Shown here piece after piece: positions 1 through 41,880 of a stretch of DNA of 64,000 nucleotides. Below the pieces are notes generated by a model. That model made no database searches. It was not told the DNA's origin and was given only the letters and a program-made list of their open reading frames with translations. Numbering within the stretch: the stretch's first letter is position 1; every line of letters begins with the position of its first letter. Location of the stretch: IMG/VR virus record IMGVR_UViG_3300043120_000090, positions 1-64,000 of that record. One strand, written 5' to 3'. This stretch comes from a virus. Taxonomy: Duplodnaviria > Caudoviricetes. The position numbers and the translations under genes were made by a program.

Positions 1-252
1 CGGAAAAAATAGGATTTAGTAAATTCATTTTGTAAATTACTACTGAATAACTTATAAAATGAATTTACTACTAGAAATAGTATGCCTAAACAATAGACAA
101 TAAGACAATAAACAAGTAATTAGCAGACTAATAACAAAATAACAAAACCACAATTGATTATATTAATTATTAGCTACATCATTACCTTAATTGAGTTCGG
201 CATACTTCTCTAGTAGCCTACTAGGTCATTACTCTAGTAGATGAAGGAAGTA

Positions 253-786
253 TTAAGCTTCCTTCACAAAAATTGAGATTTCTTTTAGAGTCTCTACATC
301 CCTATCGTCTAACTCAATGCATCCTGCATTGTTACGACCAGCACATTTATCTTTCAGAGATTGTACTCTAGCAGCATAATCTCGTGCCATATACCTAAAC
401 TTATCCGCATCTGCATTAGTCATTCCGCTAGTAAAATAAGTTTTTTTACTATCGTAATCACTATTAGCTTTAGGAGATCTATTTCTATCAAATATAGAAG
501 TAAGAACACTTTCCAGTTCTTTAGCTTCTGCAATTTGTACTGTTAAAGTATCAATGCTTTCACTATTGAACTTACTAATTGCTTCTCTAATTCTAAATTT
601 AATAGCAACTAAGTTGGTAATTACTAGAAATAAATTAGTCATAGTATCCGCAGAATATTTAGATGCAGAATTTGCACTATTAAAACTCAACCCACTCTCA
701 TAATCCGCGATACGAGATTTTTGAAGGTCAATTTCACTTTCTAATGCTGAAATTACACGTTGTGCTGTTTTAACTGTTATTTTCAT
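253..786 (-). CDS. hypothetical protein (177 aa, predicted helical/coiled-coil)
   Basis: Long ORF in the minus-strand operon, overlapping the stop of the upstream phosphoesterase; no recognisable motif. Confidence 0.75.
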   Translation of the reverse strand: MKITVKTAQRVISALESEIDLQKSRIADYESGLSFNSANSASKYSADTMTNLFLVITNLVAIKFRIREAISKFNSESIDTLTVQIAEAKELESVLTSIFDRNRSPKANSDYDSKKTYFTSGMTNADADKFRYMARDYAARVQSLKDKCAGRNNAGCIELDDRDVETLKEISIFVKEA

Positions 787-1321
787 GGTGAATTCCTACT
801 TTTTTAGTTGATAATTTTTTAATAATATTATGTAAGTTTGATACAATCATTCCAGTAGAATCTACTCCTACATCCATAGCTCTTTCACCTTTTAAAGCCA
901 CGTCATGACCATGTACGTGCCCATACAAGTGAATAGAACCTCTATGTAATTGATCCCACTCATAGATAGGATAGTGAAACATTATAACTGTTTGACCATC
1001 TATTGTAGTTTTTAAATACTCATGTATTTCTTTAAAGCAAGATCTAAAAGCTGCATTTTTTAATGCTTTTGCATCATGATTACCTACTATTAATATTTTT
1101 TCACCATTTAATCTATTTAAAATACTAACTAAAGAACTAGGTTGACTAAAACCTATATCCCCTAGAATATAAACTGTATCTTCTACTGTAACTTTACTAT
1201 TCCAGGCTGCAATCATCATTTCATTCATGTGATTAGCATCTTTATAAGGTCTAGTATTAGGGCAGAATTGAATTATCTTTTCATGACCGAAGTGTAAATC
1301 CGATGTTACATAAAGTGTCAT
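770..1321 (-). CDS. calcineurin-like metallophosphoesterase
   Basis: SDLHFGH, LGD, GNHD, FHYP and HLYGHVH motifs. Confidence 0.9.
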   Translation of the reverse strand: MTLYVTSDLHFGHEKIIQFCPNTRPYKDANHMNEMMIAAWNSKVTVEDTVYILGDIGFSQPSSLVSILNRLNGEKILIVGNHDAKALKNAAFRSCFKEIHEYLKTTIDGQTVIMFHYPIYEWDQLHRGSIHLYGHVHGHDVALKGERAMDVGVDSTGMIVSNLHNIIKKLSTKKVGIHHENNS

Positions 1322-1347
1322 GTTATTTTCCTTCTTTTAATATAAAT

Positions 1348-1376
1348 AAAGAGTATCTCTTAGCTAGATACTCTTT
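1348..1376 (-). terminator. intrinsic terminator-like hairpin after the tRNA/ncRNA array
   Basis: aaagagtatct / agatactcttt inverted repeat followed by a U-rich tract on the minus strand. Confidence 0.55.
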
Positions 1377-1408
1377 GGTTACTTACTTATAGGACAAAGT
1401 AAGGTATT

Positions 1409-1490
1409 TGGTACTCAAGGAGGGAGTCGAACCCTCATGCTAGGCACTGAGATCTAAATCCAGCGTGTCTACCAATTCCACCACTTGAGC
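1409..1490 (-). tRNA. tRNA-Leu(TAG)
   Basis: GCTCAAG acceptor, loop TT-TAG-AT, variable arm, GGTTCGACTCC, encoded CCA. Confidence 0.92.
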
Positions 1491-1659
1491 ATTAAATTGG
1501 CTTTGGGAGGATACCTAGATATTACACAACATGATTATACAAAAGTAATATCCAAATACCTTTCCAAAACCAACTTATTTATTGGTTACTGGCCTTCGCA
1601 CTCATACCTGATATGGCTACTAACCACATAGTATTTTCACCCGTTAATAAATTAGTTTG

Positions 1660-2545
1660 GCTCTAGCCTGAGATTACGGCATCGATTAGAAGTCTTTGAC
1701 CTGTACTGCTCACCTTGCGGGTGGCATTGAATCGTTATCCACTAGAGCTGTTTCCAGTCATCTAGTAACTTCCAGTGCTGCGATTTAAAGTCTCGCGGTT
1801 GACTTGACCTGCAATGCTATTCATCCTTTGTTCCATCGCCAACCTTGCGGGCTGTTAAGTGGCTGCTAAGCCTCAAACATTTTCACTCCGAATAATCTCT
1901 TTGTCCTTGCGGGACTCTGAGAACCTAATTCACTTTCGTGTTAGGTATTAAGCACCTTTCACATTGCAGCGGGACAGACTTTCGCTTTTAAATAATTATA
2001 TATCAAATAATTATATGTGCTGGATTTGAACCAACTACCGATTGCTTAAGAGGCAACTGCTCTACCAAATGAGCTAACATATGCGAACCTATCTAGATGT
2101 GCTGTCCCGTTGCTCCATACCTTGTTAGATACAGAATACAACACACCTACTGTCTTTCATCTTGCGGATTACTTAACGGTATTTCAAGACTATGATCTTC
2201 ACCACAATCTTTCATACTGGAAATTGCCTTCGCTTGCAGGCTTAGACTAACTTTCCTTCCCTTTCGTATTTGGAAATTCTGATAGTTTGCATGTACTAGG
2301 TTGGTTTGCGGCCATTTGTCTCAGGCATGATAACCCTCTGACTTATTCTTTCAAACCTAATACCTACCTTTCATATCCTACACGGCTCGTCACCGTGACT
2401 AGTAGTACGCTCAGTATATTCTAATGAGCACTTACTGCTAACGAGGGATTGCATAGATAAACCTATCTCTAGGTGGAAGTTAATAGGATGTACTTCCTTT
2501 GGGTGTATTACTACACTTATTTTAATGACGCTATGCCGCCAAAAA
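1660..2545 (-). ncRNA. GOLLD-like large structured ncRNA (~890 nt, boundaries approximate) with embedded tRNA
   Basis: ORF-less, locally GC-richer tract with many GNRA-capped hairpins (CCCGCAAGG x3, CACGAAAGTG). Contains segments I recall as GOLLD-typical: GTAGGTGTGTTGTATTC...GCACATC, AAAGCGAAAGTC...GTGAAAGGTGCTTAATACCTAAC...GAATTAGGTTCTCAGAG, and 3' GTAATCTCAGGCT. Lies in a phage tRNA array. Family call is from recall, not a covariance search. Confidence 0.72.
2011..2083 (-). tRNA. tRNA-Lys(CTT)-like, no encoded CCA, embedded in the GOLLD-like RNA
   Basis: TAGCTCATTTGGTAGAGC D-arm, GTTGC-CTCTTAA-GCAAT anticodon arm, GGTTCAAATCC T-arm; C1/A72 mismatch. Confidence 0.8.
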
Positions 2546-2743
2546 CTCAAATATAAATACTTAATAAATATTCATGTTTGAGGGTTCCGAAATGTGATAA
2601 ATATTATCACACCTAAAGACTTCGGAACCTGAGCCTTGGTAACTGAGACTAATGTCTCTTCGCTGCACTATACCTTTGCAGAGTTAGTATATTAGAAGCC
2701 AACTAACTGTTTGGCTCATTGAATCTCTCAATTCAATAAATAT

Positions 2744-2772
2744 ATTATACGTTAATTTAACCGTTTAGTAAA
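2744..2772 (-). promoter_or_regulatory. sigma70-type promoter
   Basis: TTTACT-N17-TATAAT. Confidence 0.8.
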
Positions 2773-2788
2773 GAAAATTTTTAAATTT

Positions 2789-3085
2789 CTACTTTCGCTT
2801 ACCTTTTGCATAATTGCGTTTCCCACGCTTTACAGCTTCATCGTAACTTTCTATAATACCAAACAGTTTATCTAGCTTTGTAAATCTAACTGAGATAGTA
2901 ATAGCTTCCTGCTCAGAGAAGTAGATACTAGAATAATCTTTAATATTCCATGAGCAAGTGAATTTACGATAGCTCCTCCCACTAGGGAAATCGAAAGTAT
3001 TTCTTCTAAATGTCCTATTTGCATAGGCTTTCATAAATGGATCGCGGTCAACATAACCACTATATTTCTTGTAACTTCTTGACAT
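2789..3085 (-). CDS. hypothetical basic protein (98 aa)
   Basis: ORF with AGGAGG Shine-Dalgarno. Confidence 0.8.
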   Translation of the reverse strand: MSRSYKKYSGYVDRDPFMKAYANRTFRRNTFDFPSGRSYRKFTCSWNIKDYSSIYFSEQEAITISVRFTKLDKLFGIIESYDEAVKRGKRNYAKGKRK

Positions 3086-3101
3086 AAGTACCTCCTAATA
3101 G

Positions 3102-3146
3102 TTAGAAGATATTAGTCTCTTTATTTTCTGGAGCTTGCTTGTTCAT
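3102..3146 (-). CDS. possible micro-ORF MNKQAPENKETNIF (14 aa)
   Basis: TAGGAG SD 6 nt upstream of ATG; fills the gap between tRNA-Lys and the next gene. Confidence 0.35.
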   Translation of the reverse strand: MNKQAPENKETNIF

Positions 3147-3160
3147 CAATTCTCCTAAAT

Positions 3161-3235
3161 TGGTACCTCCGGTGGGCAACGATCCCACAATATATGGTTA
3201 AAAGCCATGTGTTTTGCCAATTGAACTACGGAGGT
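3161..3235 (-). tRNA. tRNA-Lys(TTT), atypical T-loop (ATCGTTG)
   Basis: ACCTCCG acceptor, CATGG-CTTTTAA-CCATA anticodon arm, CCA end. Confidence 0.88.
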
Positions 3236-3293
3236 ATTATATATTAGCAAGCTGTTAACCTAGTTTTAATTCTTTATTCTTTTGGATAAAGTA

Positions 3294-3370
3294 TGGAAGG
3301 AGAAGTGAGATTCGAACTCACGAATGTAAGGATCAAAACCTTATGCCGTAACCAACTTGGCTATTCTCCA
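3294..3370 (-). tRNA. tRNA-Gln(TTG)
   Basis: TAAGG-TTTTGAT-CCTTA anticodon arm, GAGTTCGAATCTC T-arm, CCA. Confidence 0.9.
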
Positions 3371-4393: not shown

Positions 4394-4893
4394 TAGAATT
4401 CTTCATTTTTATTCAGAATACGTATAGCGCTAATAGCATTATAAGGGCTTAGGCCAATATTTGGGTTAATTTTAATGAAATTATCTTTCTGCCAATATAG
4501 CATATCAGAATCATCATCTAATATAACATAGCTTGAGTAATCTCTATAAAAACCTTCATAACCAATAAGTTTTTTATTATTCTCAATGAAATGTAAGATC
4601 TCTAAGCCACGTAAACTAACTGGCACACTATGCATACTTTCTGTTTTACCTATAATTTCGCCCTTAATACCCATATCTTTACATAAGACTTGTAATTCTT
4701 CTAAAGTACGACCAAGCCTCCAGGTAGAGCTAATTACTATTTTTGCATTAGTATGTTTAAGCACTAGATTAAGATTACTGATATTAAAAGATGAATGAGG
4801 TGCCCATTCACCATTAATTTCATTAATGTGAGGGTCTCTATCATTTACATTATTTAATACACCATCTATATCTAGGAATAATAGTTTTAACAT
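4366..4893 (-). CDS. HAD-superfamily protein (Swiss-army-knife RNA-repair-like HAD domain)
   Basis: LFLDIDGVLN, IVISSTWR, RGLEI and YVILDDD motifs. Confidence 0.85.
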   Translation of the reverse strand: MLKLLFLDIDGVLNNVNDRDPHINEINGEWAPHSSFNISNLNLVLKHTNAKIVISSTWRLGRTLEELQVLCKDMGIKGEIIGKTESMHSVPVSLRGLEILHFIENNKKLIGYEGFYRDYSSYVILDDDSDMLYWQKDNFIKINPNIGLSPYNAISAIRILNKNEEFYLLNPVSSV

Positions 4894-4913
4894 TCTATGT
4901 TACCTTTTATATA

Positions 4914-4989
4914 TGGAGCGTGAGGTGAGATTTGAACTCACATGACACTGATTTGCAGTCGGGCACCTAAACCATTCAGACACTCACAC
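4914..4989 (-). tRNA. tRNA-Cys(GCA)
   Basis: Loop CT-GCA-AA, GAGTTCAAATCTC T-arm, CCA. Confidence 0.9.
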
Positions 4990-4996
4990 ATAAAAT

Positions 4997-5072
4997 TGGA
5001 GCGATATATCGGAATCGAACCGATGACAATTTCGTTGGCAACGAAATACTCTACCTGCTGAGCTAATACCGC
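4997..5072 (-). tRNA. tRNA-Gly(GCC)
   Basis: TTTCG-TTGCCAA-CGAAA anticodon arm, GGTTCGATTCC, CCA. Confidence 0.92.
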
Positions 5073-5181
5073 TTAAATTGAGAGCCAGCAGGATTTTGCT
5101 GCTATGGCATCACGCTTTTTATATCCAGTAATTTACTGGTGGCCGTTGATCACCTAACCCAATTTACTCTCAAATAGATCC

Positions 5182-5292
5182 GCTTTTGAAGTCATAACCG
5201 TCGCTATAGTATTTAGTTAAGGACTTGAACCTTACCCTTCGCGCACTGCAATATGCTACCAATACACCACATTAATACTTTAAATCAAAAGC
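5182..5292 (-). ncRNA. tRNA-like RNA with extended terminal stem (Y-RNA/YrlA-like candidate)
   Basis: D-loop-like TGGTGTATTGGTAGCAT, T-arm TAAGG-TTCAAGT-CCTTA, stunted anticodon arm, outer stem GCTTTTGA/TCAAAAGC. Confidence 0.5.
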
Positions 5293-5359
5293 TCGCTTCG
5301 TACTCGTCAAGCTAAGTACAGTCTTGACAAATACTAACTATTTTTCATATGTTTACTTA

Positions 5360-5545
5360 TTACCAGGTTTCCTTGAAAAAATCTTTTTTCATTTTACGAA
5401 TTGCTCGATCTGTAGGCTTACCACTAGTGATAAATATTTTTAAGTGATTATCGTGGCAAAGCACAGTATGCCACATCATTACCCTACCTAAAATACTAGC
5501 TGCGAAACCATCAACATATTTACAAACTGGTTTAGTTACTGTCAT
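5360..5545 (-). CDS. hypothetical protein (61 aa)
   Basis: ORF with AAGGA SD downstream of a promoter; C-terminus resembles that of the 5956-6159 ORF (KPT..K...WK/F). Confidence 0.7.
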   Translation of the reverse strand: MTVTKPVCKYVDGFAASILGRVMMWHTVLCHDNHLKIFITSGKPTDRAIRKMKKDFFKETW

Positions 5546-5577
5546 ACTTTTGTTCCTTTTTTCAAATTTATAAATAT

Positions 5578-9247: not shown

Positions 9248-9349
9248 TGGTACTCGTGACTGGAATCGAACCAGTATTACACCTCTTATCTGGAGGTTGC
9301 TTTATGGAGGTATAAGCTCCACCCTTAGGCCAATATTAGCAACACGAGC
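9248..9349 (-). tRNA. tRNA-Ile(TAT) with long variable arm (102 nt)
   Basis: GCTCGTG/CACGAGT acceptor, TGGAG-CTTATAC-CTCCA anticodon arm, V-arm ACCTC-CAGATAA-GAGGT, GGTTCGATTCC, CCA. Confidence 0.75.
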
Positions 9350-20733: not shown

Positions 20734-23700
20734 TTATAGTTTACAACCACCAATACAATCTACTCCATCAGGAACATCTGCATTACCATTATCATTAGTA
20801 TTATGGTAGTATAGTGTCTTTATACCTATTCTATGGGCATATATTAATGTACTTAATATATCTGTTAGTGGTACTTTATTATCTGGATAATTAGATGGAT
20901 TATAGTATGTATTAGCACTAATACTTTGGTCTACAAATTTTTGCATAATAGCTACACTTCTTAAATATCCTTTATTTGTAAATTTAGGACTCCATGTAGT
21001 AGTATAGTTATAGTACAAATCAAATAGTTCTGGAGCGGCTTGTTTATAAACCCCATCCTTAGAAGATTTTACACTAAGTAACTGTCTAGGAGGTTCAATA
21101 CCATTAGTAGCATTATTTATCTGTGCCGAAGTTTCAGCAGGCATTAAAGCAGTTAATGTAGAATTACGTAATCCTGTACTAACAATTTTATCTATTAAGC
21201 TAGACCAATCACAATACAAAGGTGTATTACAAAATTCTTTAATATTAGTATTAGATCTAGAAATAGTAGTTTCACCTCTAGCATATCTAGTCTGTTCAAA
21301 TAACTCACATTTACCTTTTTCAATAGCTAAGTCAGCGCTAGCTTCCAATAAAGAAAATTGTATTAATTCAAATAGTCTATGAGTAAACTCTAATCCCTCT
21401 GGACTACCATATTCTAAATCCCTCTTAGCTAAGGCATAAGCATAATTTATCACACCTATACCTAGAGTTCTACGCATCTTATTTATTTCTGCTGCTTTAA
21501 CTGGGTATTCTTGGTAATCTAATAAATTATCTAAGGCTCTAACTGCTACTCTTGCTGTAGCTTTAACAGCTTCTGGTTTATCTAGGTCAATAGTACCTAG
21601 ATTCAAACCTGCTAGTGTACACAAAGCTATTTCTTCGTTTGGACTTCCCATAGGTTGTGTAGGGAGTAATATTTCCATACATTGTCCAGTTAAAAGTCCA
21701 TTAAAAAATCCCATATTACGCTTAGGTTCAGTAAAACAAAAAGTATCATCTACTCTACCATTATTTATAATATTAGTTACTTTTATAAATCTAATCGCGC
21801 TTCTTTGTAGGGTTCTAAAATTAATGGTTAATCTATGTAACTTTAGACCTAGATTTAGTAATTTTTGTGACTCAACAGATGGTATTAATAATCTCCATTG
21901 TTGTTTACAGTTATATTCTTTTAAAGAATTACTACCATCATTTGCAGGTAATAAATGCATTCCCTTAGAATTTTTAGTCTCAGTAATTTTACTATTAACA
22001 CCCATAGTCATCAGCATTAATTGAATATCTTTTAAGAACCCTAGATTTATACTAGCTGCGGTAATCTGCTCATTAGTACCGTTTCTATAGATACAACCAT
22101 CTCCATCTAAGTATCCCGCTAACCACTTTAATCTAGAGTCTATAGTATAGGATGCATCTGGTACAAAAAATTTATCTTTTAAATCTTTTGTATGCAAATA
22201 TATTCTATTGTATTTATCTTGATAAATTATACTATAATACTCGGCTGTAAATTTATCTAAAAGACTTTTTTTGTCTCCATATAAGTATATACGTTGATGA
22301 TTACCAGAACTTATATAACAACCATCTGCACTATAAAATCCATTATCATATGGATGTTTTAGCATCTTATCTCCCTCAATTATAGGTAATTCAAATTTTA
22401 TTAATTTGTCTCCTACTTTTAGGTCTTTAGCTGCTACGCGTTCAGGTTTACCTCTATAAGAGTTCTGAGTATAAAAATGATGTTCCATAGTACACTCTAG
22501 TTCCTGCCCACTATCGGTACAAACCTTTATTAAGGGTCTATTAATGCCTGTTTTATACACAGTGGTTTCTGAGAATTCTTCCCCATTCCATACATTAACC
22601 TTTTGCCCTTCTAAATCAGCTATTGGAAGGAAGCCCACATCTGTTAATACTAAAGTCTCTGGTGCAACACAAAGATTTGACTGCTTAACAGGAGCTACTA
22701 CTGGGTCAAACATACCTTGTTCTGTACTATTATCTACATTATGTATGTAAATACGTCCTGTTTGCGCTCTTTCAGTAGCTAAAGACGTAAATAACTCTAT
22801 AGCTGGTATTGATTTCTTAGTTATATTAGGATCTTTTTCTAAAGACTCATATAATTCTTTAAAGGCATCTTGATCACTAAAGAAAAAGTCATATAAGTCT
22901 CCATCAGCAATATCTGGACTAAATAAAGTTATATTCTCACCATTAACTAAACGATCATAAAATAGTTTATTAATTTGTACGCCATAATCCATATGACGGA
23001 TTCTATTTTCATCTGTGCCACGATTATTTTTTAGAACCAATAAGTTCTCTACTTCTAGGTGCCATATTGGATAAAATAGAGTGGCAGCTCCACCACGTAA
23101 TGCCGGTTGTAGTCAATGAAATTCGTTAATTTTCACCAGTTCTCTTATGAACTTCTTTATATTACTATAAAGCCTAGACTATATCATCATCCTATTAGGA
23201 TGCGTACCATTTCGATTTAACTAGGATTTATTAGATTATTACTCTACACCTAGACCACTTGGCTCTACTCTACTCCCTTCCATTATTATATGTGGTTTCG
23301 ATAGTCGTTGAACTTTACCTTACTCCTTGATTTATATAGGAGTAGCAAGGTCTTAGCTGCTGATTGTCCTAAATATTAGGAGTTCCCAGCAATTAGATAC
23401 GTTTTTCGATAAATATTACTATTTAAAGGGGCTATTATATTAACCCTGGCTACATGATTTTACGGCAGTATAAAAGTGACGATAAAATGGTACTACTCCA
23501 GTATGTACTGCTGAGCCATTTCTGATTGAGGAACCTAAAGCACGGATAGCTCCACCATTAATACCAATACCAGCTCGTTTAGATATATACTCCACAATAG
23601 CGGAAGAAGCAGCATTAATTGATTTTAATGAATCTCCAGATTCAATTAAACAACAAGAACTAAACTGTCTTGTAGGAGTTCTAACTCCTCCCATAATAGG

Positions 23701-24321
23701 TGTAGGTAAACTTAAACGTCCTTGAGATACTTCTTCATAAAAATCTATGATATAATTTAGACGATCTTCTTCAGGCTCATTCTGGTGTAAACACATACCT
23801 ATTAGCATAATTGCTATTTGCGGAGATTCTCTTAATTCTTTAGTTACACGATTTTGTACTAAGTATTTTTCTCTCCACTGCACAGTAGCTGCATATGAGT
23901 ATTCTAAATCTTTATTATGATCTATATATTCATCTAATAGAGTTATTTCCTCCCAAGTATATTTCTTTAGTATCTCTGGATCATAATATCCTTCTTCTAT
24001 ATTAGATACTATTAAATTATACAATTTTGGAGGTTCATACATGCCATAAGCACATTTTCTCATATCAAATATGTTTAGTCTAGCAGCTGGTGTTAAATAC
24101 TCAGGTTCTACTTCAGTAGATAAATCAACTGCTGCTTTAATAAGTGCTTGATGAATATCTTTAGTAGTAGGTAATGTATCTAATTTATAAGAGGCTGCCA
24201 TAAGAATGGCTGAAGGATTAGCTTCTGTTCCTTCACATGCCCATTCAACTACTGTATTAACTTTCTCTGGAGAGAATTTTTCTCTATATCCGCCTCTTTT
24301 TAAAACTTCTTTTATTTCCAA
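20734..24321 (-). CDS. nrdA: class Ia ribonucleotide reductase alpha subunit; join(24321-23443, 23103-20734), contains an intein; mature ~752 aa
   Basis: N-terminal ATP cone, SSCCLI, SQG|ALRGGAAT junction, SNL|C.E, MPAETSA, KTLYY, C-terminal CxxxC. Confidence 0.95.
21682..22671 (-). mobile_element. 330-aa intein with LAGLIDADG endonuclease in NrdA, ending in Gln
   Basis: Starts CVAPETLVLT, ends FNGLLTGQ before Cys+1; motifs GFYSADG and LAGYLDGDG. Confidence 0.93.
23104..23442 (-). mobile_element. group I intron in nrdA (339 nt, ORF-less)
   Basis: GGT|taata...caaccG|GCA; core elements CTAATTGCTGGGAACTCC, GACAATCAGCAGC, GACTA and GATATAGTC. Confidence 0.92.
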
Positions 24322-40600: not shown

Positions 40601-41349
40601 TAGAACATAGTACAACATATGATTTTGAGTTTTTTGATTCATTAAAAGAATTAGAAAGCTATCTTAATGCAAGATATAGTCTCAACGTCTATTGAAAAAT
40701 AGAGATGAGTTTAACGAACTCAGTAAGAAAATGTTCATTCGGAATACTATTCGGTTCAGGCCCAGATAAAGTAGCTGCTACTATTAACGAAGCCCTATTC
40801 GAGCAACATATAGAGCAAGGTACTCCTTATAATCCTATTGATAGAGATAAAGCTGAAGAATATATTGAAATCTATTTCAATAAATTCCCTCAACTTAAAA
40901 AATGGATTAAAGAATCTCATAATACAATTTTATCTAATGGATTTATCTACAGTCATTTTGGCAGAAAACGTAGACTACGTAATATTAGATCTACTGATAG
41001 AGGTATTGTAGGTGAAGAATTAAGAAGTGGATTTAATGCTATTATTCAAGGAGCCTCTTCTGATGTATTAATGTTAGGTGCTATAGACGCAGATAAAGAA
41101 ATTCAAGAAAAGAATTTAGATGCCGAAATAGTTATGTTAGTACATGACTCTGTAGTAGCTATAGTTAGGGAAGATTTAGTGGAAGAATATTCTGAATTAA
41201 TAGTAAGAAATATTCAAAAAGATAGAGGATTAAATTTTGGTGGATTTGGTGTTGGAGTTACATTTGATTCGGAAGAAGGTGGTTCTCTTGACTACTCATG
41301 TGGTAAGATGGATAAACAATATCCAGAATTAGTGAGGATGGTTGCCTAA
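37659..41349 (+). CDS. family A DNA polymerase; join(37659-39448, 40734-41349), ~801 aa
   Basis: 3'-5' exonuclease LDSETS/HNAKFD/YAACD, TTSGRLSS, DLTTAE, RQASKAI|SFGILFG and LVHDS motifs. Confidence 0.95.
39449..40733 (+). mobile_element. group I intron in DNA polymerase motif B (1285 nt) with internal ORF
   Basis: GCGAT|taacaag...gaaaatG|T TCA TTC; core elements CTAATTGCTAG, CAACCAGCAGC, GACTA and AAGATATAGTC. Confidence 0.92.
39712..40695 (+). CDS. intron-encoded putative homing endonuclease (CxxC repeats + PD-(D/E)xK-like domain); start uncertain
   Basis: CKHC, CVYC, CNKC, CPNC, then SNFE...QV.Y...RRWVCDFLL...IIEV. Confidence 0.72.
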   Translation: MRWYFRIPLPKREGVKINTKKTITTLEDAVDIALQFFGDNIPTTVKEYESNFPKGMGRTAIKSNLDITISQFLKLLNPKYVKTNERINFNVLLGLANKLDFNLVDYTLDNSINTTVTLECKHCGKIQRKSYKSLANCVKGCVYCKAKNVQLKFNKDRINSSLERVGASLVSDIPDSQTGIITLKCNKCLTEYSTQLVGLVSPNSLKRGTCPNCRNSDYRVVYNNITFGSNFELECYKLICKYNIAHLELQVPYKEFGNTDRRWVCDFLLDSTIIEVSTFKSDYKGYKTNLSEKRQFIEHSTTYDFEFFDSLKELESYLNARYSLNVY

Positions 41350-41367
41350 TAAGCAACCATTTTTTAT

Positions 41368-41880
41368 ATGGAATATCCAGTTTATTCTTTAAGAAGTTTC
41401 ACTGATAAGTATATAGAAGATAATAAAATTATAATAGAGACATATTATAATACTTATATATTGGATGACCTAAACTTAGTATCTAAAATCCCTGATTATG
41501 TTAAAAGACGTTTATATATAGAAGAAAATAAAGAACTATATAATTATAAACTATATCCTCTATCTAATAAGTTTACTAATTTAGTTCAAATTAATAGGTT
41601 TTATAGAGAGACTAAAAATAAACATTATATAGATATAAATGGTAGTATATTTGTATACAAGCCTACTAAAAGAGTGCAAGTAGTATGGAAGAGGCCAAAA
41701 TATATTGCAGGTAGGTATCCAGATACTTATTTAGCTATAGTTAGAGATATGCCATACCCATTCTTAGTAAATAAAGTTTATAAATATATAGCAATAACTA
41801 CTATTTATAATTCTGCTTTTATATATGATGTATCTGATGAGCAGCAAAAATTGAATGAATATTTTTGGAGGAAAATTTGA
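41368..41880 (+). CDS. hypothetical protein (T5-conserved position after pol)
   Basis: 170-aa ORF; synteny. Confidence 0.75.
   Translation: MEYPVYSLRSFTDKYIEDNKIIIETYYNTYILDDLNLVSKIPDYVKRRLYIEENKELYNYKLYPLSNKFTNLVQINRFYRETKNKHYIDINGSIFVYKPTKRVQVVWKRPKYIAGRYPDTYLAIVRDMPYPFLVNKVYKYIAITTIYNSAFIYDVSDEQQKLNEYFWRKI

What the first reader, a model, noticed from the sequence alone, without database searches (positions are those of the whole stretch)
1660..2545. GOLLD-like giant ncRNA with an embedded, CCA-less tRNA-Lys(CTT) in a T5-like phage
About 890 nt of ORF-less sequence, GC-richer than its surroundings, forms many GNRA-capped stems on the minus strand and carries segments I recall as GOLLD motifs. 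A full tRNA-Lys(CTT) cloverleaf (2011-2083) sits between the 5' and 3' domains with no CCA and a C1/A72 mismatch, so it may be a structural insert or processing signal rather than a free tRNA. GOLLD is established as a large ncRNA of unknown function linked to phage tRNA arrays. I associate it mainly with Firmicutes and environmental sequences, so a copy in a Demerecviridae-type genome may extend its range (inference). A strong promoter lies about 200 nt upstream (2744-2772).
Basis: partly seen in the sequence, partly recalled or inferred. Interest (0 to 1): 0.85.

Follow-up and report, generated by a model that had tools for sequence, protein, structure and literature searches.

The report
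GOLLD cage RNA in T5-like phage
The gene-free stretch encodes a genuine 878-base member of the known GOLLD family of giant phage RNAs, whose solved members form cages, with a lysine-tRNA-shaped piece in its middle; this layout is already described, and the new points are its presence in a T5-like phage and a built-in tRNA that lacks the CCA tail every neighbouring tRNA gene has.

Summary
Rfam's GOLLD model (RF02032) matches window 1665-2149 (minus strand) end to end at 176.3 bits, above the gathering score of 150 (E 7e-48). The 393 nt upstream (2150-2542), which Rfam does not model, align with the 5' domains of 15 other full-length GOLLDs. That shared fold covaries strongly: 95% of cells are paired against 36-43% in slid controls. 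The RNA is therefore 2542-1665, 878 nt.

tRNA-Lys(CUU) at 2011-2083 lies in the central linker. Published work already describes tRNAs there (PMC12286853, PMC12990946), and this scan has noted the arrangement on other DNA at least 34 times.

Two points are new.
- None of 39 other T5-like records carries GOLLD. Of the 36 that are at least 90% complete, 31 carry the unrelated T5 "RNAX" instead.
- The linker tRNA lacks an encoded CCA and has a C1.A72 mismatch, while all 12 other tRNAs in the window encode CCA. The same contrast holds across GOLLD loci: 13 of 15 linker tRNAs lack CCA, against 2 of 184 free tRNAs.

Function, transcript ends and cage assembly are inferred, not shown. This is a new member of a known kind, of moderate-low interest.

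The parts
1665..2542 (-). Full-length GOLLD RNA, 878 nt
   Evidence: The Rfam RF02032 hit covers 1665-2149. Homology to 15 other full-length GOLLDs starts exactly at TTGGCGGCATAGCG (2542).
2150..2542 (-). GOLLD 5' domain, not covered by the Rfam model. It includes a GUAA hairpin (loop 2511-2508) and the family-invariant GAAA hairpin (loop 2352-2349).
   Evidence: Alignment A1 has a consensus fold of 117 pairs, 85 of them with compensatory changes. Cells paired are 95.3% against 36-43% in slid controls, and 0 of 500 shuffles reach the observed values. The window row keeps 82 of 117 pairs. Its centre (about 2180-2440) is diverged or misaligned.
2092..2149 (-). Hairpin that opens the Rfam model (model positions 1-62), the last helix before the linker
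   Evidence: cmscan alignment; helices 24-25 of A1 are 98-100% paired.
2011..2083 (-). Linker tRNA-Lys(CUU) module. It has a complete cloverleaf, A73, a C1.A72 mismatch and no encoded CCA.
   Evidence: ARAGORN; Rfam tRNA 60.4 bits; ends read. It lies in the insertion between model positions 62 and about 125 of RF02032.
1990..2010 (-). A+U-rich 21-nt spacer between the tRNA 3' end and the conserved AAAAGCGAAAGUCU core
   Evidence: Sequence. In most homologues the tRNA abuts the core directly.
1665..1989 (-). Conserved GOLLD 3' domain, ending in GUAAUCUCAGGCU
   Evidence: cmscan alignment to model positions of about 125-416; nhmmer with a 3'-domain profile gives E 2.7e-71.
2744..2772 (-). Sigma-70-type promoter-like site, TTTACT-17-TATAAT. 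It is the candidate promoter of the unit.
   Evidence: Homologues have the same type of promoter ending about 13 nt before the GOLLD 5' end. The TATAAT-ATATT start resembles T5 promoter P16-17 in front of rnaX. Function is not shown.
2543..2740 (-). Structured 198-nt leader or separate small RNA between the promoter and GOLLD. It holds a long hairpin at 2650-2603 and an A/U hairpin plus U-run at the GOLLD 5' end.
   Evidence: MFE -61.4 kcal/mol against -36.2 +/- 3.7 in shuffles, z -6.8. No Rfam match at E<=1. No relative in IMG/VR for a 20-mer taken from it.
1409..1490 (-). tRNA-Leu(UAG), with encoded CCA, 174 nt downstream of GOLLD; probably in the same transcription unit
   Evidence: ARAGORN and Rfam.
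1348..1376 (-). Intrinsic-terminator-like hairpin after tRNA-Leu
   Evidence: 11-bp stem followed by a T-rich tail.

Best explanation
SHOWN: window 2542-1665 (minus strand) encodes a full-length, divergent member of the GOLLD RNA family. It has a 5' domain, a central linker (J13/15 in the published numbering) and the conserved 3' domain. It sits in the tRNA-gene region of a distant T5-like phage.

INFERRED from the solved GOLLD structures (PMC12286853, PMC12990946): the RNA self-assembles into a closed multimeric RNA-only cage. The 5' domains would form the caps, the 3' domains the rings, and the linker would face the interior. I put this at about 0.7.

Here the linker carries a tRNA-Lys(CUU)-shaped module. 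It lacks the encoded CCA that all other tRNA genes of the phage have, and its terminal acceptor pair is broken. My favoured reading (about 0.5) is that this module is not matured like the free tRNAs. It would stay covalently tethered inside the cage, at least until the cage opens, and act through its tRNA shape and anticodon arm rather than as an ordinary decoder.

Transcription most likely starts at the promoter-like site 2772-2744, or at an unrecognised start just upstream of 2542. It would run through GOLLD into tRNA-Leu(UAG) and stop at the terminator-like hairpin 1376-1348. This is inferred.
For: Identity
- RF02032 scores 176.3 bits, above the gathering score of 150, over the full model, on the minus strand only.
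- The 5' half is collinear with 15 other full-length GOLLDs from the first base.
- The shared fold has 117 pairs, 85 with compensatory changes. Cells paired are 95.3% against 36-43% slid, and 0 of 500 shuffles match.
- The window row satisfies 81 of 115 pairs of a structure derived from the other 15 sequences alone. Slid controls give 40-57.
- The length of 878 nt compares with 802-864 nt in the homologues.
- The context is a phage tRNA array.

Linker tRNA
- It is inserted exactly where other GOLLDs carry theirs, about 447-460 nt from the 5' end.
- All 12 other tRNAs of the window are followed by CCA; this one is not.
- Across 19 GOLLD loci, 13 of 15 linker tRNAs lack CCA, while 182 of 184 free tRNAs have it.
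- Linker tRNAs share D and T arms (72% and 68% mean identity). They differ in anticodon arm and identity: Lys CUU, Arg UCU, a class-I 'Leu' UAG, 'His' AUG and Trp CCA. Their acceptor tops are often mismatched.

Literature
- The linker lies inside the cage and tRNAs are sometimes present in it (PMC12286853).
- An 'inhibited storage' idea has been proposed for a linker tRNA-Phe (PMC12990946).

Transcription unit.
Against: - Transcript ends, processing and abundance are therefore unknown.
- Cage assembly is extrapolated from members that are at most about 65% identical. The centre of the window's 5' domain fits the consensus fold poorly under a sequence-only alignment: 35 of 117 pairs are unpaired.
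- Single-sequence folding energy does not favour the minus strand (z -2.6, against -4.2 for the plus strand).
- The linker tRNA looks fully competent apart from its ends. It has the 4th-best tRNA score of 13 in the window, a canonical anticodon loop and A73. It could therefore be excised, with CCA added by the host enzyme.
- The CCA contrast comes from one GOLLD subfamily found with two sequence motifs, giving about 10 distinct linker tRNAs. Shared ancestry inflates the counts.
- The promoter-like site is no better than chance as a class, and it lies 200 nt upstream, unlike in homologues.
Confidence: 0.85

Rival explanations
1. The linker tRNA is an ordinary working gene delivered inside a precursor. 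RNase P cuts its 5' end, an RNase Z/BN-type endonuclease cuts after A73 (the route used for CCA-less tRNA precursors), and the host CCA-adding enzyme completes it. The product is a tRNA-Lys(CUU) for AAG codons. GOLLD then either works as two non-covalently paired halves or is merely the carrier.
For: - The cloverleaf is complete and high-scoring (60.4 bits, 4th of 13 tRNAs in the window), with a canonical anticodon loop and an A73 discriminator.
- The phage's other Lys tRNA has anticodon UUU, so CUU would not be redundant.
- T5-type phages are known to gain from their own tRNA-Lys: the T5 variant evades PARIS/AriB cleavage (PMC11464382).
- From my own knowledge, not tested here: some phage T4 tRNA precursors lack CCA and depend on host RNase BN and nucleotidyltransferase.
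Against: - AAG makes up only 18.5% of Lys codons in 23 large ORFs (147 of 795).
- All 12 free tRNAs of the phage encode CCA, so a CCA-less working gene would be the exception.
- C1.A72 weakens the acceptor end. In homologues the acceptor tops are worse, and some anticodon and body combinations are not credible decoders: a class-I Leu(UAG), and His(AUG).
- In Mycobacterium aubagnense no expression of the GOLLD-internal tRNA was detected (PMC6582537).
Confidence: 0.3
2. GOLLD fills the role that the unrelated large stable RNA 'RNAX' plays in classical T5-like phages. On this view the two are interchangeable, analogous tRNA-bearing giant RNAs of the early tRNA-gene region.
For: - T5 carries rnaX (719 nt, 'stable RNA with unknown functions') behind promoter P16-17 and directly ahead of tRNA-Arg.
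- RNAX contains a tRNA-like element (38.3 bits).
- RNAX is detectable in 31 of 36 near-complete T5-like records, but not in the window's genome.
- GOLLD shows the reverse pattern: present here, absent from all 39.
- Both units begin TATAAT-ATATT followed by a hairpin.
Against: - RNAX gives no GOLLD signal even at E<=10.
- No blastn similarity was found.
- The tRNA-like piece sits near the 5' end of RNAX, not in the middle.
- The flanking genes are not shared. The phosphoesterase homologue of T5 lies 24 kb from rnaX, and the upstream 98-aa ORF has no T5 match.
- The window's record is only 76% complete, so an RNAX-like gene could lie in the missing part.
- Five complete T5-like records have neither RNA.
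Confidence: 0.15
3. The element is a recently acquired, selectively neutral passenger, and its tRNA is a decaying pseudogene. It would have no function in this phage.
For: It is the only T5-like record of 40 with GOLLD. The nearest relative (67% helicase identity) has no tRNA or GOLLD beside its phosphoesterase gene. The L. brevis GOLLD was reported to be dispensable for phage production (cited in PMC7567579).
Against: The RNA is 55-65% identical to its nearest relatives yet keeps the full 3'-domain model and the terminal helices of the 5' domain. It has therefore diverged under constraint rather than decayed. The tRNA module still scores 60 bits.
Confidence: 0.08
4. The stretch is not a GOLLD at all. 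It would be a chance match, a ROOL RNA or a protein-coding stretch.
For: The score (176 bits) is only 26 bits above the family threshold.
Against: - E is 7e-48 over the whole model.
- Other GOLLDs with a tRNA insert score the same way (168-195 bits).
- No ROOL or other family matches at E<=1.
- No ORF of 60 aa or more is present.
- There is independent 5'-domain homology with covariation.
Confidence: 0.02

Closest known systems
GOLLD RNA (Rfam RF02032; Weinberg et al. 2009 as cited in PMC12286853; env-38 cryo-EM 14-mer, Kretsch et al. 2025, PMC12286853)
   Same: It matches the full 3'-domain model above the gathering score. It has a roughly 400-nt 5' domain with the same covarying helices, and its invariant GAAA hairpin fits the conserved GAAA loop (L11a) described for env-38. 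A variable central linker, a length above 800 nt and a phage tRNA-array context are also shared.
   Different: It is the most divergent of the 17 full-length sequences compared (55-65% identity, against a median of 69% among the others). It is also the longest (878 nt). It has a 21-nt A/U spacer after the tRNA, no promoter directly at its 5' end, and a T5-like phage as carrier.
GOLLDs with a tRNA in the J13/15 linker (e.g. Mycolicibacterium GOLLD with tRNA-Phe, PMC12990946; M. aubagnense pseudo-tRNA, PMC6582537; uncultured-phage loci L010, L012, L042, L049 and L067 with Lys(CUU))
   Same: The tRNA is inserted at the same position. In five IMG/VR lineages it has the same anticodon (CUU), and it lacks CCA while its neighbours encode CCA.
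   Different: The acceptor stem sequence is different (CATATGT/ACATATA, against TCGCAAA/TTTGYA). Only the 1:72 pair is broken here, so this copy looks more tRNA-competent than most.
RNAX (rnaX) of phage T5, GenBank AY543070 40848-41566, 'stable RNA with unknown functions'
   Same: Both are large, promoter-driven, ORF-free structured RNAs that contain a tRNA-like element. Both lie among the tRNA genes of a T5-type phage and are followed by a tRNA gene.
   Different: No sequence or covariance-model similarity was found. RNAX is shorter (719 nt), its tRNA-like element is near the 5' end, and its flanking genes differ.
ROOL RNA
   Same: It is also a large phage RNA found near tRNA islands that forms an RNA-only cage (PMC12286853).
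   Different: No Rfam ROOL match at E<=1. Its sequence and fold are unrelated.

Membership tests
GOLLD RNA (RF02032) | Covariance-model score at or above Rfam's gathering threshold over the conserved 3' region | tested here: met
   176.3 bits against 150, E 7.2e-48, model positions 1-416, minus strand.
GOLLD RNA (RF02032) | A less conserved 5' domain of about 400 nt that forms its own set of helices | tested here: met
   2150-2542 is collinear with 15 GOLLD 5' domains. The fold has 117 pairs, 85 of them compensatory, and 95.3% of cells paired against 36-43% slid. The window itself keeps 70% of the pairs, against 35-50% slid.
GOLLD RNA (RF02032) | Variable linker between the two domains, which may hold a tRNA | tested here: met
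   tRNA-Lys(CUU) lies 460-532 nt from the 5' end, the same place as in 14 other loci.
GOLLD RNA (RF02032) | Encoded in phages or prophages, often near tRNA islands | tested here: met
   The source is an IMG/VR virus record with T5-like proteins. There are 13 tRNA hits within 1.4-9.4 kb.
GOLLD RNA (RF02032) | Self-assembly into a closed homo-oligomeric cage | not testable with these tools
   Known only for env-38 and the S. agalactiae 3' domain (PMC12286853, PMC12990946). My search for a conserved partner of the linker flank found none.
GOLLD RNA (RF02032) | Expressed as a stable RNA of about 800 nt or more | not testable with these tools
Canonical free tRNA gene of this phage | Cloverleaf with D, anticodon and T arms | tested here: met
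   ARAGORN Lys(ctt); Rfam tRNA 60.4 bits.
Canonical free tRNA gene of this phage | Encoded 3' CCA, as in every other tRNA gene of the window | tested here: not met
   12 of 12 other tRNAs are followed by CCA; this one is followed by TTATTT.
Canonical free tRNA gene of this phage | Paired 1:72 acceptor end | tested here: not met
   C1 lies opposite A72. Eleven of the other 12 tRNAs have a Watson-Crick or G.U pair here; tRNA-Gln has U.U.
ROOL RNA | Rfam covariance-model match | tested here: not met
   No match at E<=1 in 1300-3300.
T5 RNAX | Sequence similarity to rnaX of T5 | tested here: not met
   blastn with T5 rnaX gives 31 of 36 near-complete T5-like records positive and the window's genome negative.

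The most novel reading that the evidence does not exclude
GOLLD linker tRNAs would be a distinct, co-inherited class of CCA-less, non-released tRNA-shaped modules. Their anticodon arms would be swapped under selection, for example as tethered baits or reserves against anticodon nucleases that target tRNA-Lys (PARIS/AriB, PrrC). T5-type phages would need such a giant tRNA-bearing RNA so consistently that a lineage lacking RNAX acquired a GOLLD instead.
Probability: 0.1. Interest if true: 0.7.

Novelty: new member of a known kind. Interest (0 to 1): 0.3.

Why it matters
GOLLD has a solved cage structure but no known function. A copy in a T5-like phage places it in a phage family with tractable laboratory relatives.

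The contrast between the linker tRNA and the phage's free tRNAs gives a concrete, testable handle on one question: whether the cage stores, hides or displays its tRNA. The linker tRNA has no CCA and a broken acceptor end, against 12 of 12 free tRNAs with CCA here and 182 of 184 across related loci.

GOLLD and T5's uncharacterised RNAX are also distributed in a mutually exclusive way among T5-like phages. This suggests the two could be studied as analogues. None of this changes the classification: the family and the tRNA-in-linker layout are already published.

Tried and rejected
2. Single-sequence folding energy as a strand test: z is -2.6 on the minus strand and -4.2 on the plus strand, which is uninformative.
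3. A conserved pairing partner for the linker's conserved GUAGGUU flank, as a proxy for the published L20-J13/15 kissing loop: no consistent site was found. My first attempt hit the wrong copy of the motif. This is no evidence either way.
4. Close relatives of this particular GOLLD or its leader: blastn against 50,697 phage records found only four roseophages with partial similarity. A 20-mer from the leader found nothing in IMG/VR. Loci found through the neighbouring phosphoesterase carry no GOLLD.
5. Bacterial hosts of the subfamily: the core motif hit only two MAG contigs in genome contigs.
6. T5-like identity of other GOLLD-bearing contigs: 0 of 10 have the T5-type helicase, but most are fragments.
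7. Micro-synteny between this locus and T5 rnaX: none. GOLLD signal in RNAX: none at E<=10.
8. The 16-mer 5' motif: only 20 of 63 hits were GOLLDs. The rest were treated as chance or unrelated.
9. Weinberg 2009 and Morgado 2020 are not held. They are cited only through papers that cite them.
10. I did not build a covariance model of the 5' domain. At about 445 columns it exceeds the 400-column limit, so the window's central helices were judged by eye. H8, H9, H17 and H19-21 re-form in a shifted register.

Full report
WHAT IS THERE

The minus strand of window 1400-2900 was read directly. A scan of the whole window against Rfam 15 at gathering thresholds gave one GOLLD hit (RF02032) at 1665-2149 on the minus strand. 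It scores 176.3 bits against a family threshold of 150, with E 7.2e-48, and covers model positions 1-416 without truncation. A second search through the genome tool reproduced it, as did a permissive scan of 1300-3300. In that permissive scan no other large-RNA family, ROOL included, reached E<=1.

ARAGORN and the Rfam tRNA model both place a tRNA-Lys(CTT) at 2011-2083 on the minus strand. In the cmscan alignment it falls in the long insertion between the first hairpin of the model and the conserved AAAGCGAAAGUCU core, which is the variable linker.

- No ORF of 60 aa or more lies between 1632 and 2788.
- G+C is 41.9% against 31.4% for the window.
- Seven strict GNRA tetraloop hairpins lie on the minus strand. 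That compares with two on the plus strand and 1.96 +/- 1.49 in shuffles.

THE 5' HALF

Rfam models only the 3' region, so I tested 2150-2545 separately.
- Two motif scans of IMG/VR gave 15 loci with a GOLLD above threshold.
- They also gave 20 segments in which a shared 16-nt 5' motif is followed 480-545 nt later by a GOLLD 3' domain.
- BLAST of the 600 nt upstream of the window's Rfam hit against the same stretch of these loci shows homology starting at the same offset in all of them. In the window that offset is base 2542, at TTGGCGGCATAGCG.

An alignment of 16 5' domains (A1) gives a consensus fold of 117 pairs, 85 of them with compensatory double changes. In the pair-count test 95.3% of cells are paired, against 36-43% when partners are slid by 1-3 columns. 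No shuffle out of 500 reaches the observed values on any of the five measures.

The window is the most divergent row.
- It keeps 82 of 117 pairs.
- It keeps 81 of 115 pairs of a structure derived from the other 15 sequences alone, against 40-57 for slid partners.
- The shortfall lies in the centre (about 2180-2440). By eye the corresponding hairpins re-form there in a shifted register, which suggests sequence-only misalignment, but I could not formalise this.
- Overall identity to the other full-length GOLLDs is 55-65%, against a median of 69% among them.

The RNA is therefore 2542-1665, 878 nt. Homologues measure 802-864 nt.

THE PHAGE

The window is the first 64 kb of an 85,955-bp IMG/VR virus record that CheckV estimates to be 76% complete.
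- Its 923-aa helicase matches phrog_3712 end to end and is 52-53% identical to those of T5, Shivani, SSP1 and hundreds of other Demerecviridae.
- T5-type tail proteins and a tape-measure protein are present.

'T5-like' is correct, as a distant lineage.

I then asked whether T5-like phages in general carry GOLLD. Thirty-nine IMG/VR records carrying the helicase include T5 itself (121,750 bp), 36 records at least 90% complete, and the two closest relatives at 67-68% identity. None gave any RF02032 match at E<=0.001. The identical search is positive on the window's own record. The nearest relative that has a homologue of the neighbouring phosphoesterase gene has dense ORFs and no tRNA beside it. 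Ten other GOLLD-bearing contigs lack the T5-type helicase, though most are fragments. Within this sample the window's phage is the only T5-like carrier.

THE LINKER tRNA

[quoted passage not shown] A 2026 review names a tRNA-Phe in J13/15 of a Mycolicibacterium GOLLD and proposes 'inhibited storage' (PMC12990946). A pseudo-tRNA inside a mycobacterial GOLLD gave no detectable expression (PMC6582537). This scan has also noted the arrangement at least 34 times on other DNA. The layout is therefore not new.

What I could add is a contrast with the free tRNA genes.
- Each of the 12 other Rfam tRNA hits in the window is followed directly by CCA. The linker tRNA is followed by TTATTT and has C1 opposite A72.
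- Across 19 GOLLD loci, 13 of 15 linker tRNAs lack CCA, while 182 of 184 free tRNAs in the same loci have it.
- The linker tRNAs share D and T arms (72% and 68% mean pairwise identity).
- They differ in the anticodon arm and nominal identity: Lys CUU in six lineages including this one, Arg UCU, a short-variable-arm 'Leu' UAG, 'His' AUG and Trp CCA. Many have mismatches at the top of the acceptor stem.

That is a lead, not independent evidence.

Three caveats apply. My sample comes from one subfamily found by two motifs and holds about ten distinct linker tRNAs. The window's own copy is among the most tRNA-like: 60.4 bits, a canonical anticodon loop and A73. AAG is only 18.5% of Lys codons in 23 large ORFs, which argues weakly against a strong need for a CUU decoder.

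TRANSCRIPTION UNIT (INFERRED)

In most homologues a sigma-70-type promoter ends about 13 nt before the conserved 5' end. Its -35 is TTTACA, TTGACA or TTTACT and its -10 is TATAAG or TATAGT.

The window has no comparable site there. As a class such matches are not enriched (7 found, 6.6 expected). Even so, it is of the same type as the homologues' promoters, and its TATAAT-ATATT-hairpin start resembles T5 promoter P16-17.

That start would leave a 198-nt leader (2740-2543). The leader is itself strikingly structured (z -6.8). It has no Rfam match and no relative was found. It ends in an A/U hairpin plus a U-run that overlaps the GOLLD 5' end, so it could also be a separate small RNA.

Downstream come a 174-nt spacer with a long hairpin (z -3.2), then tRNA-Leu(UAG) with CCA, then a terminator-like hairpin at 1376-1348.

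RNAX

A look-up of earlier notes pointed to 'RNAX' of T5. I checked the following.
- GenBank AY543070 annotates rnaX (40848-41566, 719 nt, 'stable RNA with unknown functions') behind promoter P16-17 and directly ahead of tRNA-Arg.
- RNAX contains a tRNA-like element (38.3 bits) but gives no GOLLD signal even at E<=10.
- blastn with rnaX is positive in 31 of 36 near-complete T5-like records. It is negative in the window's genome and in its two nearest relatives.
- The flanking genes are not shared.

GOLLD and RNAX are thus unrelated by every test available, yet they occupy analogous settings and are mutually exclusive in this sample. That is suggestive of analogy and no more.

HOW IT PROBABLY WORKS

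- Shown: family membership, domain layout, position of the tRNA, its missing CCA and its broken 1:72 pair.
- Inferred from solved relatives: self-assembly into an RNA-only cage with the linker, and hence the tRNA module, inside (about 0.7).
- Favoured but open (about 0.5): the module is not matured like the free tRNAs. It would remain tethered, acting through its shape and anticodon arm.
- Main rival (about 0.3): RNase P, an RNase Z/BN-type cut and CCA addition release a working tRNA-Lys(CUU). Such a tRNA would be of obvious use to a T5-type phage, given that host defences such as PARIS cleave tRNA-Lys and T5 escapes with its own tRNA-Lys (PMC11464382).
- I could not obtain any expression data.

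VERDICT

It is a new, divergent member of a known family in a phage group where the family was not seen in my sample. The modest added observation concerns CCA-less linker tRNAs. Interest is moderate-low.

Noticed in passing
window 2543-2740 (-): The 198 nt between the promoter-like site and the GOLLD 5' end fold far better than shuffles (z -6.8). The fold has a 5' hairpin, a three-hairpin cloverleaf-like junction, a long hairpin at 2650-2603 and an A/U hairpin plus U-run. There is no Rfam match and no relative in IMG/VR. It may be a leader or a separate small RNA.
   Followed up: partly
window 1491-1664 (-): The 174-nt spacer between GOLLD and tRNA-Leu holds a long, nearly perfect hairpin (z -3.2). 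It also has an extended -10-like TGTATAAT at 1541-1534, which may be a second start for tRNA-Leu.
   Followed up: partly
window 4917-4989 (-) and 9251-9349 (-): Two Rfam tRNA hits (38.6 and 37.4 bits) were not called by ARAGORN. Both are followed by CCA. The second is 99 nt long, which is unusual (a long arm or an insert).
   Followed up: no
window 23155-23452 (-): A group I intron (95.3 bits) lies between ORFs 23440-24321 and 20734-23040. The latter matches the ribonucleotide reductase large subunit, so this is probably a split nrdA.
   Followed up: no
L019 (Phaeobacter phage MD18, MT270409.1) 1530-1997 and 2208-2623: This cultured roseophage has an unannotated GOLLD (169.6 bits). Its linker tRNA is annotated as a free tRNA-Arg. 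The GOLLD is immediately followed by a permuted alphaproteobacterial-type tmRNA (110-119 bits).
   Followed up: partly
L128 (phage T5, AY543070) 4849-5567 (-): T5 rnaX (719 nt, 'stable RNA with unknown functions') contains a tRNA-like element (38.3 bits). It matches no Rfam family. It is found in 31 of 36 near-complete T5-like records, but not in the window's genome.
   Followed up: partly
3' flanks of L010, L012, L018, L022, L034, L042, L049: A conserved motif of about 22 nt (AAGACTTATTAGATGAACAC-like) follows the end of the Rfam GOLLD model in seven homologues, so the family may extend beyond the model's 3' end. It is not clearly present in the window.
   Followed up: no
L021, L023, L025 and about 40 further loci: The 16-mer GGCGGYATAGCGTCRT also occurs in 43 IMG/VR stretches with no GOLLD 3' domain within 1.1 kb. 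I did not determine whether these are chance matches or another conserved element.
   Followed up: no
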